In this document: positions 22,492 to 26,518 of the stretch, in pieces
How positions within the stretch are numbered: position 1 is the stretch's first letter
Layout of the letters: every line of letters starts with the position of its first letter
Source: Coprobacillaceae bacterium
Lineage (GTDB): Bacteria > Bacillota_I > Bacilli_A > Erysipelotrichales > Coprobacillaceae
Length of the DNA stretch: 32,000 nucleotides
Reading direction: 5' to 3'
Assembly: GCA_963675515.1 (NCBI GenBank)
Contig: OY776328.1
Coordinates: 1,980,001-2,012,000 of the forward strand
Made by a program: the position numbers and the translations under genes
Notes under the pieces: generated by a model
What the model saw: only the letters and a program-made list of their open reading frames with translations
Told to the model about the DNA's origin: nothing
Databases searched by the model: none

Positions 22492-23405
22492 CTAGTCGAG
22501 ATCTTCCCCGTTAGAGGCGATGACTTTCTTGTACCAGTCGAATGAATCCTTTTTAGAACGGTCCAGGGTTCCGTTTCCTTCATTGTCCTTGTCGACAAAG
22601 ATGAAGCCGTAACGTTTTTTCATTTCCCCGGTCGTGAATGAGACAAGATCGATGCAGCCCCATGGCGTGTATCCCATCAGGTCAACCCCGTCAAGCTCAA
22701 CCGCTTTTTTCATCTCTTCGATATGGGCTTTCAGGTATTCGATGCGGTATGGATCGTGGCAGCTGCCATCCTCTTCCTTGACATCGATTGCCCCGAATCC
22801 GTTTTCCACGATGAAAAGAGGCAATTCGTAGCGTTCATAGAAGATGTTGAGGGAATAGCGGATTCCAACCGGATCGATTGCCCAGCCCCAGTCCGATTCC
22901 TTGATGAACGGATTTTTCACCGTATGTTCCGATGAACCGTCAGTCGAAGTCGAGATGTCCTTGAATGAAGTCGAATCCACGGTGTTAGACATATAGTATG
23001 AAAAACCGATATAGTCGACTTTCCCCTCAGCCAGGATCTTCTTGTCTTCCTCACTGATTTGAATGTTGAAGTTCTTGCGTTCGAACAGTTTCAAAGCGTA
23101 AGCCGGATAGTGGCCGCGGCATTGGACGTCGGCGAAAAAGAAACGGTCATGCATCGCTTCCTGGGCCAACATGATGTCGTCAGGACGACATGAGAACGGA
23201 TAGATCGGCACCATCGCGATCATGCACCCGATCTGGATATCCGGGTTGATAGCCTTACCGGCTTTTACCGCCAGGGCGCTTGCGATCAGGCAGTTGTGCC
23301 CGGTGATGTACATCGCTTCTTCAGGATTCTCGAACGTAGAAAACAGCACGCCCGAATCGCACCAGCCAAACAGGTCGTTCTTGAAGTTCATCTGGTTGTT
23401 GATCT
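22492..23405 (-). CDS. bglA: 6-phospho-beta-glucosidase (GH1), exon 2 (last two bases of the Glu codon plus 303 codons)
   Basis: From 23405 the minus strand reads AG ATC AAC AAC CAG ATG AAC..., giving (E)[21 protein letters not shown]. It continues through the nucleophile motif IVENGFGA to ...ASNGEDLD. The track ORF 22492..23391 is the part after the first Met. The sequence is colinear with the C-terminal two thirds of BglA-type enzymes. Confidence 0.9.
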
Positions 23406-23454
23406 ATAGCGATAGGTAAGACTTTGATGTTATCTCCATCTTTTCCCCCGCTCC

Positions 23455-23488
23455 ACACCGTGCATGCGACTTTCACCGCACACGGCGT
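23455..23488 (-). ncRNA. Group II intron domain V
   Basis: The minus strand reads ACGCCGTGT-GCGGT-GAAA-GTCGC-AT-GCACGGTGT. This folds into a 9-bp lower helix (with the conserved G-U), a 2-nt bulge, a 5-bp upper helix and a GAAA tetraloop. The catalytic triad positions read CGC. Confidence 0.8.
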
Positions 23489-23504
23489 TCCATCTAATTC
23501 TTCT

Positions 23505-25299
23505 TTAATTTATTTCAGTTAAATTACATCTCTTACGCAACATGTTCAGTTTTTTAAGCTGTGTTTTGTTTAGATTGAACTTTTTCAATAGCGTTTTTTC
23601 AGTTTCCTGATTATTACCGTGTATTAGTTTATGTACTTCTTTGTGAATAATGATTAGATTGTCAAAATTATCGGTTCCACCATCTCCAACGGAAACAATG
23701 TGATGACAGTGTATTTCCTCGGCCGTTAGAAACAACTGGGTGATTCCACAACGCCCTTTTTGCATTGAATACTTTGAGATTGTGTTATCCCGATATTCCA
23801 CACTTCCGTTTCCAATTGGCAGTTCCAGCAACCTCTTCATAACTGAGGTTACATTATTTTCTAATCGTTTATAAACTAATTTGCGCCCCTCTTGGGTATA
23901 GTTGCATATGTTTTGATTGAAGTTTGTCTTCAATTTCCACTGCGTATCCGCCAGTGGAAACAATGAAATGGCTCCAATCGTGAATGTGCGATAGTTATTC
24001 TTAAATAACTTCTTATACAACGGTGGGGGACTCCTGGGTACTTCATATTTAGCTATTGGTTTCAATCGGTTGTACAAGGTCTTGAGCGTCTGATGGTAAA
24101 CATTTCTAAAATCTATATTTACATGTGTTGCAGCTTCATAATAATTTCTTATCCCCAGTATATATGAATTATAATTGTGGATATTCTTGGAAATTGTATG
24201 ACGCTGTATCTCGATAACTCTTTTCCTTATTTCCGCTTTGATTTTTATTTTACTTTTCGCCGATACAAAGGTATTCGCAACGTACTTCTTGCGCTTTGGT
24301 ACCAGCTTCATTTCAAACCCCAAATAGTCCGACCTACGTTTCCTTAGATTGGTAATCTTTGACTTTTCAGGTGAAACATTAAGTTTAAGTTCATTCTTCA
24401 GATATTCCTTGACCGCATGATATATCCTTACCGCATTTTTATAACTGCAAGTGAAGACTCGTGCGTCATCGGCATACCTTACCGCATACATTTCTTTTAG
24501 ATTGGTTTTCTTGAGTACTCTATACTTATATGGACATTTATAATCAGCATTGAATGTTTCCCATTGATTGCTTATCCACCAGTCCAGATCGTTCAACACT
24601 ACGTTTGAAAGTAATGGCGAAAGCACTCCTGCCCTGTGGTGTCCCACAGTGTGGGACACCTACTCCTTTGATGGGAGCTTTCAGCATTCTACTTATAATC
24701 GTCAGTACCTGATTATCCTTGATGCCGATATTCCAAAGTTGTTTGATTAACTTGGTATGATTGACATTGTCAAAGAACGATTCGATATCCAAATCAACAA
24801 CATAGTGATTGTGCGTCATATTGGCGATATGGCAACATCTTGACAAAGCATTATGGGTTGAGCGATTGGCTCTAAATCCATATGAATGCTTATGAAACTT
24901 CGCTTCGCAGATTGGTTCAAGTATCTGTTTGAACATCTGTTGAATCAGTCTGTCATGCATCGTTGGTATTCCCAATGGTCGTAATTTTCCATTAGGTTTA
25001 GGTATTTCTACTCTTCTTACCGTTTTTGGTTTATAGTCCAATAGCGATAGTCTAATATCCTGAATAAATTTCTCAACGTTTTCTATCTTGTAATCATCAA
25101 TAGTAAGGCCGTCAGTGCCTTTAGTGTGACTTCCGGTGTTGCTTTTGATGTTTCGATAGGCGAGGAGTATATTGTTCCTGGATATCACCAGATTATAAAG
25201 ATCTATCCCGTAAGTATCATTGTTTAAACTCATTTGATACAACCAGTCAAAAGTTTCCTGCATACTGTAATATTCGTTGTTTCGTAATCCCGTGCTCAC
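23505..25299 (-). pseudogene. Group II intron-encoded protein (reverse transcriptase, maturase X domain, HNH endonuclease), interrupted by a 1-nt frameshift
   Basis: Two overlapping track ORFs lie in different frames. ORF 24544..25299 carries RT0-RT4 (RPLGIPTMHDRLIQQ, SYGFRANRSTHNAL, VVDLDIESFFDNVNH, GTPQG). ORF 23505..24659 continues with GVLSPLLSNVVLNDLD, YADD, the X domain and HNH (HCHHIV...NLIIIHKEVHKLIH). The frames meet at GGC-A-GGA (about 24630..24631). The likely real start is ATG 25263 (MQETFDWLY...). Confidence 0.85.
24638..24660. repeat. 23-nt perfect palindrome inside the RT coding sequence
   Basis: GGTGTCCCACA-G-TGTGGGACACC has 11-bp arms and a 1-nt centre. It encodes GVPHCGT immediately 5' (in the coding sense) of the frameshift site. 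Confidence 0.9.
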
Positions 25300-25995
25300 C
25301 GATGGATTATTCCTTTCGTTTAGAACAATTGTTTCCCATCATCTTATCAGACCCTGTGAGCTTCATTTAACTGTAACTGATTTTTAAAGAACCAGACTTG
25401 GGGCTATCCCTCCACCATTTTTCGTGGCTTCATCGGTACTGTGCCCCTACTTTCACGAGAATAAAAACACTTCGTTTACACTTATAGTTACCGTCCCGAT
25501 AACAGTCGTTTAATAGACGTTTCTCGCTTACAACGTTCCAAATATTCTAGCTTTACATTTATCCTTAGGTTCCTGCTATGAGCCTGATGAATTATACCCT
25601 CATTGTCGAGTATCTCGAATTTCATATCAACGATTCTTACTTTTCGATATTCATCGTTGCGCACGCAACATGCCACCTTTCAATAGCACGACTTTCTAGA
25701 CCCGTACATTCGCAGTTTCGTCAGTCCTTACACGGACATTCTCACCATAGATAATTTATAGCGTCCCGGCCTATCCTTTACCATATGATATATCACTTAG
25801 GTATTGTTCAGCCGACTTCACCTAGCTTCACACATAATTTTACTGTTATAACCTCATGCGTGTAGGAGTATCAGACTACTTGTTTCAGGCTAACATGACA
25901 GCCATCATTCCAAGTATTGAATATTCAGTTGTGATTTTCCTATTGGAAAATCCTCCCATTTCATGCCTAGGCACTTATAGGGAAACGTTTCGCAC

Positions 25996-26518
25996 CGTTG
26001 AAGGTCATCCAGTACTTAACCTTGTTTTTGTAGCGTTCGAAACAAACAGTGGCGAACTTCACGAAGAAGTCGGCTACCTTGCGGTTGTAGAATCCGCCAT
26101 ATTCCTTGGCCAGATGGTAAGGCATCTCGAAATGCGACAGGGTGATGACCGGTTCGATCCCGGCTGCAAGCAATTCGTCGAACATGTCATCGTAGAACTG
26201 CAGCCCTTCCTCGTTTGGTTTTTCCTCGTCTCCAAGCGGGAAGATGCGGGTCCAAGACAATGAAGTCCTGAAGCACTTGAATCCCATTTCCTTGAACAGG
26301 GCGATGTCCTCCTTGTAGCGGTGGTAGAAGTCGATTGCCTCATGGTTGGGATAGTTTTCCCCAGGAACAACTCCCTCGGTTATCCTTCGAGGCACTCCAT
26401 GCGCCCCGGCAGTGAGAACATCGGCCACATTGAGACCTTTGCCTCCGGCATCATAGCCACCTTCAAGCTGATGGGCGGCTACCGCGCCACCCCATAAAAA
26501 ATCTTTTCCAAATCCCAT
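25996..26518 (-). CDS. bglA: 6-phospho-beta-glucosidase (GH1), exon 1 (174 codons plus the first base of the Glu codon)
   Basis: AGGAGG lies 8 nt before ATG 26518. The translation is [34 protein letters not shown]...[11 protein letters not shown]...[13 protein letters not shown]...KYWMTFN, followed by a G. The track ORF 25967..26518 then reads into intron sequence (GAKRFPISA stop). Confidence 0.9.

What the first reader, a model, noticed from the sequence alone, without database searches (positions are those of the whole stretch)
22492..26518. Complete group II intron sits inside the catalytic acid/base Glu codon of a GH1 6-phospho-beta-glucosidase
Two minus-strand ORFs 2.6 kb apart are the N-terminal part (26518..25996, ending KYWMTFN plus one G) and the C-terminal part (23405..22492, starting AG then [18 protein letters not shown], later IVENGFG) of one GH1 enzyme. 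The intervening 2,590 nt has every hallmark of a group II intron that I can read by eye. It has a 5' GTGCG at 25995. It has an RT-X-HNH ORF. It has a textbook 34-nt domain V (23488..23455) with a GAAA tetraloop and 2-nt bulge. It has a domain VI-like helix with a bulged A at 23413, 8 nt from the 3' end, and a 3' ...CTAT at 23406. Joining 25996 to 23405 gives AAC G|AG ATC, which reads TFN-E-INN and yields an uninterrupted 478-aa protein. The split codon is the NE(I/P) acid/base glutamate of family GH1. Bacterial group II introns mostly reside in intergenic or mobile DNA. One that interrupts a conserved catalytic motif of a metabolic enzyme is therefore unusual, since it resembles the strategy seen for inteins and group I homing introns. 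It also makes sugar-phosphate hydrolysis dependent on splicing.
Basis: partly seen in the sequence, partly recalled or inferred. Interest (0 to 1): 0.75.

Follow-up and report, generated by a model that had tools for sequence, protein, structure and literature searches.

The report
Mobile intron splitting a sugar-enzyme gene
A self-splicing mobile group II intron really does sit inside the codon for a catalytic glutamate of a sugar-phosphate-cleaving enzyme, and, less expectedly, every known copy of this intron carries the same one-base frameshift in its own reverse-transcriptase gene, which nevertheless still evolves like a working gene.

Summary
The split gene and the intron are real, and every coordinate is exact. 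Joining 25996|23405 gives a 478-aa GH1 6-phospho-beta-glucosidase that is colinear with E. coli BglA, and the intron splits the GAG codon of the acid/base Glu175 (TFN-E-INN). Rfam matches both intron ends. EBS1/EBS2 pair with the 5' exon and covary with nine different flanks in related copies. Empty target sites exist in intron-less GH1 genes.

One correction: the intron-encoded protein is not one ORF. A single extra A (window 24630) inside RT motif GTPQG|GVLSPLL shifts the frame by +1.

All seven copies of this intron family that I recovered share that insertion. They are 94-99.9% identical and come from six assemblies, both long- and short-read. Both ORF halves show dN/dS of about 0.1, a third-position bias (p=2.5e-18) and no stop codons where 11-13 are expected. 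EBS1/EBS2 were re-targeted to new sites after the frameshift arose. The protein is therefore most probably still made, by +1 recoding or as two chains.

Other family members sit in a second conserved GH1 motif (RYK-E-D) and in transposase genes. Splicing in vivo is untested. The insertion itself is a rare but precedented case. The conserved, selected frameshift is the new element.

The parts
25996..26518 (-). GH1 exon 1 (residues 1-174 plus the first base, G, of the Glu175 codon)
22492..23405 (-). GH1 exon 2. It starts with AG of the Glu175 codon. The nucleophile Glu375 (IVENGFG) codon is at 22806..22804, and the stop codon is included.
23406..25995 (-). Group II intron, 2,590 nt. GC is 38%, against 50% in the exons.
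25755..25933 (-). Domain I core matched by Rfam RF02004 (109.8 bits)
25996..26001 (-). IBS1 (5'-TCAACG-3', exon positions -6..-1)
   Evidence: Six Watson-Crick pairs with EBS1; covaries across nine copies.
26002..26008 (-). IBS2 (5'-ATGACCT-3', exon positions -13..-7)
   Evidence: Six of seven positions pair with EBS2, one of them a G-U.
25627..25632 (-). EBS1 (5'-CGTTGA-3'). The U at 25633, immediately 5' of it, could pair with the first 3'-exon base, A at 23405.
25688..25694 (-). EBS2 (5'-AAGTCGT-3')
24631..25263 (-). IEP part 1 in frame 0 (ATG 25263, or GTG 25299): RT motifs 0-4, ending ...GTPQG. If the frame is not changed it runs on to TGA at 24546..24544.
24630..24630 (-). Extra A that shifts the IEP frame by +1 (CAG GGC A GGA). 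It is shared by all 7 family copies and absent from the three intact relatives.
24638..24660 (-). 10-bp GC-rich hairpin GGUGUCCCAC-ACU-GUGGGACACC, ending 4 nt upstream of the GGC codon. Intact relatives can form only 4-5 bp here. Its 5' arm holds the first in-frame GTG (24659) of the +1 ORF, preceded by AAAGGAG (24669..24663).
23505..24629 (-). IEP part 2 in frame +1: GVLSPLL..., YADD (residue 263 of the repaired protein), X/thumb, D and HNH endonuclease, then the stop codon.
23455..23488 (-). Domain V (34 nt, GAAA loop, 2-nt bulge). Identical in all family copies and in intact relatives L001 and L002; L086 and L003 differ at one loop-adjacent base (GAAAA for GAAAG).
23409..23452 (-). Domain VI, with the bulged branch-point candidate A at 23413
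26566..26594 (-). Promoter-like site (extended -10) upstream of the GH1 start. The RBS aggagg lies at about 26531.
   Evidence: consensus match only
22462..22489 (-). Terminator-like hairpin plus T-run (aaaaagcatgg-gaaa-ccatgcttttttt) after the GH1 stop
   Evidence: read directly; not listed by the scan

Best explanation
Shown:
- A 2,590-nt group II intron (ribozyme domains I-VI plus an RT-X-D-HNH protein gene in domain IV) lies in sense orientation inside a chromosomal, monocistronic GH1 6-phospho-beta-glucosidase gene. It sits between the first and second base of the GAG codon for the acid/base Glu175.
- There is no target-site duplication. Related intron-less GH1 genes carry the uninterrupted site TGGATGAC(A)TTCAACG|AGATCAAC.
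- The 13 nt upstream of the insertion pair with EBS1 and EBS2 of this copy. In eight other copies, at seven other sites, EBS1 and EBS2 carry compensating changes.

Inferred (near certain): the intron arrived by reverse splicing and reverse transcription (retrohoming or retrotransposition). It arrived recently, because a 99.9% identical copy exists elsewhere.

Inferred (p about 0.6-0.7): the pre-mRNA can splice by branching at A23413. Splicing would rejoin AAC-G|AG-ATC, so this GH1 paralogue is made only from spliced RNA and probably at reduced level.

Shown: the intron's protein gene carries a fixed +1 frameshift (extra A at 24630, within RT motif 4). All seven family copies share it, and both halves have evolved under strong purifying selection since it arose.

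Inferred (p about 0.75): a functional RT/maturase is still produced.

My preferred mechanism (p about 0.4) is low-efficiency +1 ribosomal frameshifting at GGC-AGG-A, either by tRNA-Arg slipping from AGG to GGA or by out-of-frame decoding of GGA. The derived hairpin just upstream may help. Such a shift would also throttle IEP dosage. The alternative (p about 0.2) is a two-chain RT, with the second chain starting at GTG 24659 or at a nearby GTG.

The overall confidence of 0.7 refers to the package 'mobile group II intron recently retrohomed into the Glu175 codon, still splicing-competent, with an IEP that is still functional despite the fixed frameshift'. The identity and position of the intron alone are at about 0.97.
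For: Intron identity:
- Rfam RF02004 and RF00029 match above their thresholds.
- GTGCG...AT boundaries, and D5/D6 with a bulged A.
- RNAalifold on 7 ORF-deleted copies gives a D1-D6 layout.
- The repaired IEP matches TIGR04416 at 345 bits against a cutoff of 300.

Host gene.

Retromobility, EBS1/IBS1 pairs:
- window CGTTGA/TCAACG
- L081 CGTTGT/ACAATG
- L082 and L087 CTTTGT/ACAAAG
- L085 TGTCGT/ATGACA
- L086 CGTCGC/GCGACG
- L001 CTTTGA/TCAAAG
- L002 CTTGGA/TTCAAG
- L003 CTTCTA/TGGAGG
EBS2/IBS2 likewise covary, for example L086 AGTGGA/TCCACT. Empty sites are seen.

The frameshift is real and ancestral to the family:
- The same extra A is in 7/7 copies from the window, two hifiasm-type assemblies and three Illumina-based Logan assemblies. 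It is absent from intact relatives L001-L003.
- All 14 proteins in the 90% cluster are post-frameshift fragments. No intact protein more than 72% identical was found among 5.8 billion.

Selection after the frameshift:
- NG86 dN/dS is 0.06-0.14 in both halves, at dS 0.15-0.25.
- Variable sites by codon position are 17/6/53 upstream and 28/26/108 downstream in the +1 frame, chi-square p=2.5e-18.
- Private substitutions are 65-70% synonymous against about 21% expected. The window lineage has 14 synonymous and 5 non-synonymous.
- There are 0 stop codons against 10.6-12.6 expected, P about 1e-5.
- The only ORF indel is 3 nt and in frame.

The ribozyme core is intact: D5 and D6 match intact relatives L001 and L002 at all but a few D6-loop bases.
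Against: - There are no RNA data, so splicing of this copy is unproven.
- The insertion is recent, so intact exons say nothing about function.
- The +1 PRF model lacks canonical features. GGC cannot re-pair at GCA. AGG is not rare in this host (5.0 per 1000 codons, the same as AGA), and the ORF holds 8 other AGG codons.
- The hairpin ends only 4 nt from the shift codon, so it would be unwound when the ribosome is on the site.
- For the two-chain model, the AAAGGAG-to-GTG spacing is only 3 nt, and no split group II RT is known.
- One relative (L083) is a truncated copy next to a decayed GH1. Another cluster member pair (P0123/P0126) has a second break. Some copies therefore do decay.
- Intron class could not be settled.
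Confidence: 0.7

Rival explanations
1. Dead insertion. The frameshift abolishes the maturase, the intron cannot splice in vivo, and this GH1 copy is a newly made pseudogene tolerated because other GH1 paralogues exist. The exons look intact only because the insertion is recent.
For: - The frameshift lies in RT motif 4.
- A 99.9% identical copy exists elsewhere, so the insertion is recent.
- L083 shows a truncated copy beside a decayed GH1 fragment.
- Related contigs carry several GH1 genes.
- Group II introns depress host-gene expression even when they splice (PMC6003770 abstract).
Against: - Both ORF halves are under purifying selection, including private changes on the window lineage (14 synonymous: 5 non-synonymous).
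- EBS re-targeting to at least 5 different sites happened within the frameshifted family.
- The ribozyme core is unaltered.
- EBS/IBS pairing at this site is perfect, or wobble-only apart from one C-A mismatch in EBS2/IBS2.
- The L082 host GH1 is also intact, inside a PTS operon.
Confidence: 0.2
2. Non-autonomous family. The frameshifted copies make no functional IEP and are spliced and mobilised in trans by a 'driver' IEP from another intron, as for the ORF-less Thermosynechococcus introns.
For: - Driver IEPs acting in trans are documented (PMC2882425).
- Intact relatives at about 70% identity exist in Erysipelotrichales genomes (L001, L002).
Against: - An unused ORF should decay. Instead dN/dS is about 0.1, there are no stops against 11-13 expected, and the only indel is in frame.
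- No intact protein more than 72% identical was found anywhere.
- The master-copy variant of this idea needs the same A to be inserted independently in 7/7 copies.
Confidence: 0.1
3. Adaptive 'intein-like' niche. The family is specialised to home into invariant catalytic or structural motifs of GH1 genes, because such sites cannot mutate to escape and recur in many paralogues.
For: - Three of seven copies are precisely in conserved GH1 motifs: site A in the window, and site B in two different GH1 genes. A fourth copy abuts a GH1 remnant.
- Identical empty site A is found in other GH1 genes.
- Targeting of the most conserved region of host genes has been proposed for other introns (PMC2504315).
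Against: - Other copies are in an rve transposase, next to or in an IS66 transposase gene, and in an unidentified site.
- The sample is only seven copies, and it was found through protein clusters rather than at random.
- A 13-nt EBS match plus a G at -1 and an A at +1 suffices to explain each site.
Confidence: 0.3
4. The frameshift is a sequencing or assembly error, and the IEP is a normal single ORF.
For: Single-base indels are the commonest long-read error.
Against: - The same base is present in seven copies from six assemblies, including three short-read Logan assemblies.
- The site, GGC-A-GGA, is not a homopolymer.
- Gene callers on 14 independent sequences all produced post-frameshift fragments.
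Confidence: 0.02

Closest known systems
Intact Erysipelotrichales and Clostridium relatives of this intron: L001 (Erysipelotrichales MAG), L002 (Erysipelotrichaceae HCN-30851), Faecalitalea cylindroides WP_270459841 and Clostridium perfringens IepA
   Same: - Same intron lineage: 74-76% nt identity over the whole 2.6 kb and 68-72% IEP identity.
- Near-identical D5/D6.
- The EBS1 loop is in the same position.
- Same RT-X-D-HNH architecture.
   Different: - They have an uninterrupted IEP ORF (CAAGGC-GGA).
- They have only a 4-5 bp hairpin at the site.
- They lack the GGAG/GTG combination.
- Their target sites differ.
Group II introns in conserved bacterial genes: Geobacillus kaustophilus recA intron, B. 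cereus-group introns in DNA-metabolism genes, cyanobacterial housekeeping-gene introns
   Same: An RT-encoding group II intron interrupts a conserved chromosomal protein-coding gene in sense orientation, so expression depends on splicing (PMC2504315; PMC4424553).
   Different: - The host gene here is a GH1 sugar-phosphate hydrolase, and the site is the acid/base Glu codon.
- I found no earlier report of that host or site, after only a handful of literature searches.
- The IEP is frameshifted.
Lactococcus lactis Ll.LtrB / LtrA (IIA, ML class)
   Same: - An En-plus IEP of about 590-600 aa.
- Retrohoming guided by EBS1, EBS2 and the base 5' of EBS1.
- Host-gene expression depends on splicing.
   Different: - LtrA is no closer than the IIC or CL proteins: 138 bits, RT region only, against 173 and 157 bits. 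Membership of the ML class is therefore not supported.
- The host gene is a plasmid relaxase, i.e. mobile DNA.
Thermosynechococcus elongatus TeI3/TeI4 intron families
   Same: Proliferation within and between genomes by divergence of EBS sequences to new sites, and some copies with damaged ORFs (PMC2882425).
   Different: - There, damaged or ORF-less copies rely on driver IEPs and are not under coding selection.
- Here the damaged-looking ORF itself is under strong purifying selection.
Programmed +1 frameshifting (bacterial prfB; yeast Ty1 CUU-AGG-C and Ty3 GCG-AGU-U) and frameshift-regulated transposases (IS3 family). Comparison from my own knowledge.
   Same: - A fixed frame change inside a mobile-element or regulatory gene.
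- Both frames are conserved.
- The A-site codon is AGG, as in Ty1.
- There is a nearby RNA structure.
- It would limit the dose of a potentially harmful enzyme.
   Different: - The shift codon has no re-pairing-competent P-site codon.
- AGG is not rare here.
- There is no upstream SD at prfB-like spacing.
- The efficiency and the product are unknown.

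Membership tests
Group II intron (ribozyme plus retroelement) | 5' GUGYG and 3' AY boundaries | tested here: met
   GTGCG at 25995..25991 and ...CTAT ending at 23406. The same ends occur in 9 related copies.
Group II intron (ribozyme plus retroelement) | Domain V: a 34-nt helix with a 2-nt bulge and a GNRA loop. Domain VI: a bulged A 7-8 nt from the 3' end. | tested here: met
   RF00029 scores 61.6 bits against a gathering score of 40. The MFE fold shows D5 and a D6 with A23413 bulged. The D5 triad is CGC with a compensating C-G pair, and it is the same in intact relatives.
Group II intron (ribozyme plus retroelement) | Domain I with EBS1/EBS2 complementary to the 5' exon | tested here: met
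   EBS1 forms 6/6 pairs and EBS2 6/7. Compensatory changes are seen at 8 distinct sites in 9 copies. RF02004 scores 109.8 bits.
Group II intron (ribozyme plus retroelement) | Six-domain secondary structure | tested here: met
   RNAalifold on 7 ORF-deleted copies gives D1, D2, D3, the D4 stem, D5 and D6. This is a prediction only, and some terminal pairs are mis-drawn.
Group II intron (ribozyme plus retroelement) | A single IEP ORF in domain IV with RT, X, D and En domains | tested here: inconclusive
The reading frame is broken by +1 nt at 24630.
Group II intron (ribozyme plus retroelement) | Site-specific retromobility without target-site duplication | tested here: met
   Comparative evidence only: precise insertions at several sites with matching EBS changes, and empty sites in L083 and L084.
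Group II intron (ribozyme plus retroelement) | Splicing (lariat formation and exon ligation) | not testable with these tools
   No transcript data are available.
Intron class (ML/IIA versus bacterial class B/IIB-like) | IEP groups with class representatives; RNA shows class-specific features (delta-delta' versus EBS3) | tested here: inconclusive
   LtrA (ML) scores 138 bits, T.el4h (CL) 157 and IIC RTs 173, so none is close. The intron is En-plus and its close, full-length relatives are almost all from Firmicutes, which fits class B (PMC4424553) only by elimination. The +1 base is A at every site where it is known, so there is no covariation to decide between delta' and IBS3.
GH1 6-phospho-beta-glucosidase | Full-length family match above curated cutoffs | tested here: met
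   PF00232 scores 431 bits over residues 3-474. NF007154 scores 826 bits against a cutoff of 624. E. coli BglA (2xhy) gives E=2e-224 and a gap-free alignment at the junction.
GH1 6-phospho-beta-glucosidase | Acid/base Glu in the NE(P/I) motif and nucleophile Glu in the (I/V)xENG motif | tested here: met
   TFNE175INN is created only by the splice. The nucleophile is in IVE375NGFG. Motif roles follow PMC10685196.
GH1 6-phospho-beta-glucosidase | Hydrolysis of phosphorylated beta-glucosides, with linkage to a PTS transporter | not testable with these tools
   No PTS gene lies within the 32-kb window. Activity has not been measured.
Programmed +1 ribosomal frameshift | A frame change at a fixed, conserved site, with both flanking frames under purifying selection | tested here: met
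   7/7 copies share the site. dN/dS is about 0.1 on both sides, with third-position bias in the shifted frame.
Programmed +1 ribosomal frameshift | A shift-prone codon pair: a P-site tRNA able to re-pair at +1, and a slow (rare or stop) A-site codon | tested here: not met
   GGC to GCA cannot re-pair, and AGG to GGA keeps 2 of 3 pairs. AGG is used at 5.0 per 1000 codons in host genes and 8 more times in the IEP.
Programmed +1 ribosomal frameshift | A stimulatory element, and a demonstrated trans-frame protein | tested here: inconclusive
   A derived 10-bp hairpin lies 4 nt upstream (the 101-nt region has z=-2.8). Its role is unknown, and the protein product is not testable here.

The most novel reading that the evidence does not exclude
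This Erysipelotrichaceae intron family expresses its reverse transcriptase/maturase through an obligatory +1 recoding event (GGC-AGG-A with an upstream hairpin) inside RT motif 4. That would be the first programmed frameshift shown for a group II intron-encoded protein. It would act as a built-in throttle that keeps IEP levels low enough for the intron to live inside conserved motifs of metabolic genes such as GH1.
Probability: 0.35. Interest if true: 0.8.

Novelty: new variant of a known kind. Interest (0 to 1): 0.6.

Why it matters
There are two separate points.

(1) The insertion adds a clear bacterial example of a group II intron inside the catalytic codon of a chromosomal metabolic enzyme. 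Sister copies sit in a second invariant GH1 motif, and matching empty sites exist. This gives a natural system for asking how much host-gene expression survives such an insertion. It also lets one test whether conserved motifs of multi-copy enzyme families serve as dispersed homing sites.

(2) More important, this is a retroelement whose RT gene has carried a frameshift through many substitutions and several re-targeting events while staying under strong purifying selection. That challenges the routine practice of scoring frameshifted IEPs as dead. Miura et al. 2022 (PMC8919778) only speculate otherwise.

If recoding is confirmed, it would reveal a new layer of self-regulation in group II introns. 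It would also provide a compact bacterial +1 frameshift signal of an unusual type. If instead the RT works as two chains split within the palm, that would be informative for RT engineering.

Tried and rejected
- Exact look-ups of the window's exon-1 ORF and of P0013, P0132 and P0122 found no contig. The source 2.88-Mb genome itself could therefore not be read, and its other intron copies (P0013, P0122, P0124) were seen only as proteins.
- The single genome-contig scan with the repaired IEP returned only relatives at or below 71% identity, all with intact ORFs. It gave no member of the frameshifted family.
- JGI metagenome and IMG/VR scans for the frameshift-site pattern, with or without the extra A, found nothing. 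Scans with the intron 5' end found only 69-78% relatives.
- The 'hungry AGG codon' idea is weakened by codon usage.
- Class assignment failed by PDB comparison and by plasmid tblastn. 'ltrA' is a generic annotation label.
- The 96%-identical intron-less GH1 (P0153/L084) is not syntenic and is only 87% identical at the nt level in exon 2. It is an empty-site homologue, not the same locus in another strain.
- Sequencing error as the source of the frameshift is rejected (seven copies, six assemblies, two technologies).
- Four literature searches found no demonstrated recoding in a group II IEP. The library is incomplete, so this is not proof of absence.

Full report
OBSERVATION

They are 26518..25967, whose GH1-coding part ends at 25996, and 23391..22492, which extends upstream to 23405. 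Reading the minus strand shows ...TGG ATG ACC TTC AAC G | GTGCGAAACG ... CCTATCGCTAT | AG ATC AAC AAC. Joining 25996 to 23405 yields a 478-aa protein with no stop codon, in which residue 175 is the Glu of TFN-E-INN.

That protein matches Pfam Glyco_hydro_1 over residues 3-474 (431 bits). It matches NCBIfam 6-phospho-beta-glucosidase NF007154 at 826 bits (cutoff 624). It also matches the crystal-structure sequence of E. coli BglA (2xhy) at E=2e-224, with a gap-free alignment through [14 protein letters not shown]. In GH1 the Glu of the NEP-type motif is the acid/base catalyst and the Glu of the ENG motif is the nucleophile (PMC10685196). Here the nucleophile is E375 in IVENGFG.

The 2,590-nt insert has 38% GC against 50% in the exons. 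Rfam's gathering-threshold scan finds group-II-D1D4-5 at 25933..25755 (109.8 bits, E=2.5e-23) and the D5/D6 model at 23490..23406 (61.6 bits against 40). D5 is exactly 23488..23455. The minimum-free-energy fold of the 3' end draws D5 with its 2-nt bulge, and D6 with A23413 bulged 8 nt from the 3' end. An RNAalifold consensus of seven ORF-deleted relatives gives the D1-D6 layout.

THE ONE CORRECTION

The intron-encoded protein (IEP) is not a single ORF. Frame 0 (ATG 25263, or GTG 25299) reads RT motifs 0-4, ending ...CGTPQG. It then runs into 28 unrelated codons and a TGA at 24546..24544. The +1 frame (open from GTG 24659) continues with GVLSPLLSNVVLNDLD..., YADD, the X/thumb region and an HNH endonuclease, as far as 23505. 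Three intact relatives read CAA GGC GGA at this point, whereas the window reads CAG GGC A GGA. The difference is one extra A at 24630. Deleting it gives a 585-aa protein that passes the group II RT/maturase equivalog TIGR04416 (345 bits, cutoff 300) and matches PF00078 and PF01844.

WHERE IT COMES FROM

Several window proteins are exact matches to genes on one 2,881,239-bp NCBI/ENA contig. These proteins are singletons at 90% identity. The nearest named relatives are uncultured Erysipelotrichaceae. The neighbourhood is ordinary chromosome: ProRS directly downstream, an SDR upstream, NrdD/NrdG, CorA and cyclophilin. There is no PTS gene in 32 kb, and there is one multi-copy DDE transposase. The GH1 gene looks monocistronic, with a promoter-like site and RBS upstream and a hairpin plus T-run downstream.

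RELATIVES OF THE INTRON

The repaired IEP finds intact proteins only up to 72% identity, from Erysipelotrichales MAGs, Faecalitalea cylindroides and C. perfringens IepA. It also finds one 90% cluster of 14 sequences that are all C-terminal fragments beginning after the frameshift. Two of them start MGHHRAGILSPLL, which is the shifted frame. Four of them lie on the window's own genome.

I recovered the DNA of six further copies:
- L081, in a circular 2.57-Mb genome.
- L082 and L083, from one metagenome.
- L085, L086 and L087, from three short-read Logan assemblies.

They are 94.3-99.9% identical to the window intron. Every one has the extra A.

INSERTION SITES AND MOBILITY

The flanks differ between copies:
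- The window copy is in GH1 at TFN|E|IN.
- L082 and L087 are in two different GH1 genes at FY(N/H)RYK|E|D.
- L081 is in an rve transposase at HWYN|E.
- L085 lies immediately downstream of a called IS66-family transposase ORF, possibly interrupting that gene.
- L086 is in an unidentified ORF.
- The intact relatives are at three other sites.

In each copy the six bases before the intron are complementary to a hexamer in the same loop of domain I (EBS1), and that hexamer changes to match (listed as EBS1/flank):
- window CGTTGA/TCAACG
- L081 CGTTGT/ACAATG
- L082 and L087 CTTTGT/ACAAAG
- L085 TGTCGT/ATGACA
- L086 CGTCGC/GCGACG
- L001 CTTTGA/TCAAAG
- L002 CTTGGA/TTCAAG
- L003 CTTCTA/TGGAGG

A second variable segment (EBS2) likewise tracks positions -13..-7. 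The first 3'-exon base is A wherever it is known, and the base 5' of EBS1 is always U.

Intron-less GH1 genes in L084 (96% aa identical to the window enzyme, non-syntenic) and in L083 carry the uninterrupted site TGGATGACATTCAACGAGATCAAC. These features are the signature of retrohoming or retrotransposition by reverse splicing. They confirm the exact boundaries.

The spliced L082 GH1 is also intact (499 aa) and sits between PTS EIIC and IIB genes.

THE FRAMESHIFT IS OLD AND THE ORF IS STILL SELECTED

All seven copies share the insertion and the three outgroups lack it. By parsimony, every difference among the seven arose after the frameshift. Those differences look like changes in a translated gene:
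- NG86 dN/dS is 0.06-0.14 both upstream and downstream of the shift, at dS 0.15-0.25.
- Variable sites fall 17/6/53 by codon position upstream. Downstream they fall 28/26/108 when phased in the +1 frame (chi-square p=2.5e-18). The bias moves to the wrong position if the downstream part is phased in frame 0.
- Substitutions private to a single copy are 65-70% synonymous against about 21% expected. The window lineage has 14 synonymous and 5 non-synonymous.
- None of 238 variable sites creates a stop codon, where 10.6-12.6 would be expected (P about 1e-5).
- The only ORF indel is a 3-nt in-frame insertion, shared by L085 and L086.

Immediately after the shift, changes such as TTA CTT TCA AAC to TTA CTA TCC AAC are silent in the +1 frame but change residues in frame 0. 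EBS1 and EBS2 diversified to at least five targets within this frameshifted family. D5 and D6 are unchanged from the intact relatives apart from a few loop bases.

HOW IT MOST LIKELY WORKS

Shown: a group II intron retrohomed into the acid/base Glu codon of a GH1 gene, in sense orientation and with near-perfect EBS/IBS pairing.

Inferred: transcription from the GH1 promoter yields a precursor. On that precursor, ribosomes stop 9 codons into the intron (GAKRFPISA*). The IEP is translated from domain IV and binds the RNA as a maturase. The intron then leaves as a lariat branched at A23413, recreating GAG and hence the active site. Group II introns depress expression of their host gene even when they splice (PMC6003770 abstract), so this paralogue is probably down-regulated rather than silenced.

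For the IEP, the selection data argue that residues on both sides of the shift are made. I favour a low-efficiency +1 shift at GGC-AGG-A. It could occur by tRNA-Arg slipping from AGG to GGA, giving GTPQG-R-VLSPLL, or by out-of-frame decoding of GGA, giving GTPQG-G-VLSPLL.

Three features are derived in this family relative to the intact relatives:
- a 10-bp GC hairpin at 24660..24638, which is only 4-5 bp in the relatives;
- a GGAG;
- a GTG in the +1 frame.

These would suit either a recoding stimulator or an internal start for a second chain. Against canonical +1 PRF, AGG is not rare here and GGC cannot re-pair. Against a restart, the SD-to-GTG spacing is 3 nt. I cannot decide between the two models computationally.

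RIVALS

- A dead insertion (p about 0.2) fits the recency of the insertion and the decayed L083 locus, but not the selection data.
- Trans-mobilisation by a driver IEP (PMC2882425) explains mobility but not coding conservation (p about 0.1).
- Sequencing error is excluded.
- An adaptive preference for catalytic motifs is suggested by four of seven copies being at or next to GH1 genes, and by empty identical sites. Copies in or beside transposase genes and the small sample keep it at about 0.3.

COMPARISON WITH WHAT IS KNOWN

Bacterial group II introns are mostly outside housekeeping genes (PMC4424553). Exceptions are on record: Geobacillus recA, B. cereus-group DNA-metabolism genes, cyanobacterial genes, and introns that home into the catalytic motif of other introns' RTs (PMC2504315). 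The GH1 insertion is therefore a new member of a known kind.

The intron class is unresolved. The IEP is equally distant from solved ML, CL and IIC proteins. It is En-plus with close relatives almost entirely from Firmicutes, which fits bacterial class B only by elimination.

Frameshifted IEPs are normally treated as pseudogenes. One survey merely raises the possibility of read-through or frameshift expression (PMC8919778). I found no demonstrated case. A conserved, selected frameshift in an actively re-targeting family is the respect in which this lies outside the known pattern.

VERDICT

Interest is 0.6, driven mainly by the frameshift.

Noticed in passing
L083 4582-7061 and its flanks (metagenome contig ERZ21869602 ctg86035l): A 99.9% identical copy of the window intron lacks its first 85 and last 25 nt. 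It abuts the 3' two-thirds of a different GH1 gene. That gene still has an empty, perfectly matching site A 100 nt downstream and then breaks off in a stop (…SMTIRG*). It may be an intron-associated deletion, a recombination product or an assembly chimera.
   Followed up: partly
Protein P0124 (156 aa), on the same 2,881,239-bp genome as the window but outside it: Its N-terminus, MCGESRMHGVERGK, is the translation of intron domain V. It is fused directly to the IEP C-terminus (LKTNFNQ...). The source genome therefore holds a rearranged or internally deleted copy of the intron, in addition to at least two more frameshifted copies (P0013, P0122).
   Followed up: no
L082 2945-8686: A sister intron (94.6% identical) splits a 499-aa GH1 gene at FYNRYK|E|DI, in the middle of a PTS EIIC - GH1 - PTS IIB operon. 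The spliced ORF is intact. L087 has the same intron lineage at the same motif of another GH1 gene.
   Followed up: yes
window 30035-31540 (+): A DDE_Tnp_1 transposase (501 aa). Its 90% cluster includes two other members on the same genome, so it is a multi-copy IS element about 3.5 kb from the GH1 gene.
   Followed up: no
L090 8521 and L091 6437 (IMG/VR contig IMGVR_UViG_3300012277_000035): Two copies of a more distant relative of the intron (about 69% nt identity) lie in one 50-kb viral contig, both inserted after ...CAATATGAGG. Phages may carry this intron lineage.
   Followed up: no
Proteins P0123 and P0126 (ENA contig of 25,059 bp): One family copy has a second break in the IEP (111-aa and 262-aa fragments, with an altered C-terminus). 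Some copies are therefore truly decaying, in contrast to the seven analysed.
   Followed up: no
window 874-1035 (-) and 1191-3838 (-): Adjacent tRNA-Val(TAC) and tRNA-Glu(TTC) genes lie next to the anaerobic ribonucleotide reductase pair NrdG/NrdD. This is ordinary chromosomal context.
   Followed up: no
window 23488-23455: Domain V begins with a CGC triad instead of the usual AGC, with a compensating C-G pair. The same triad is present in all relatives, including those with an intact IEP.
   Followed up: partly
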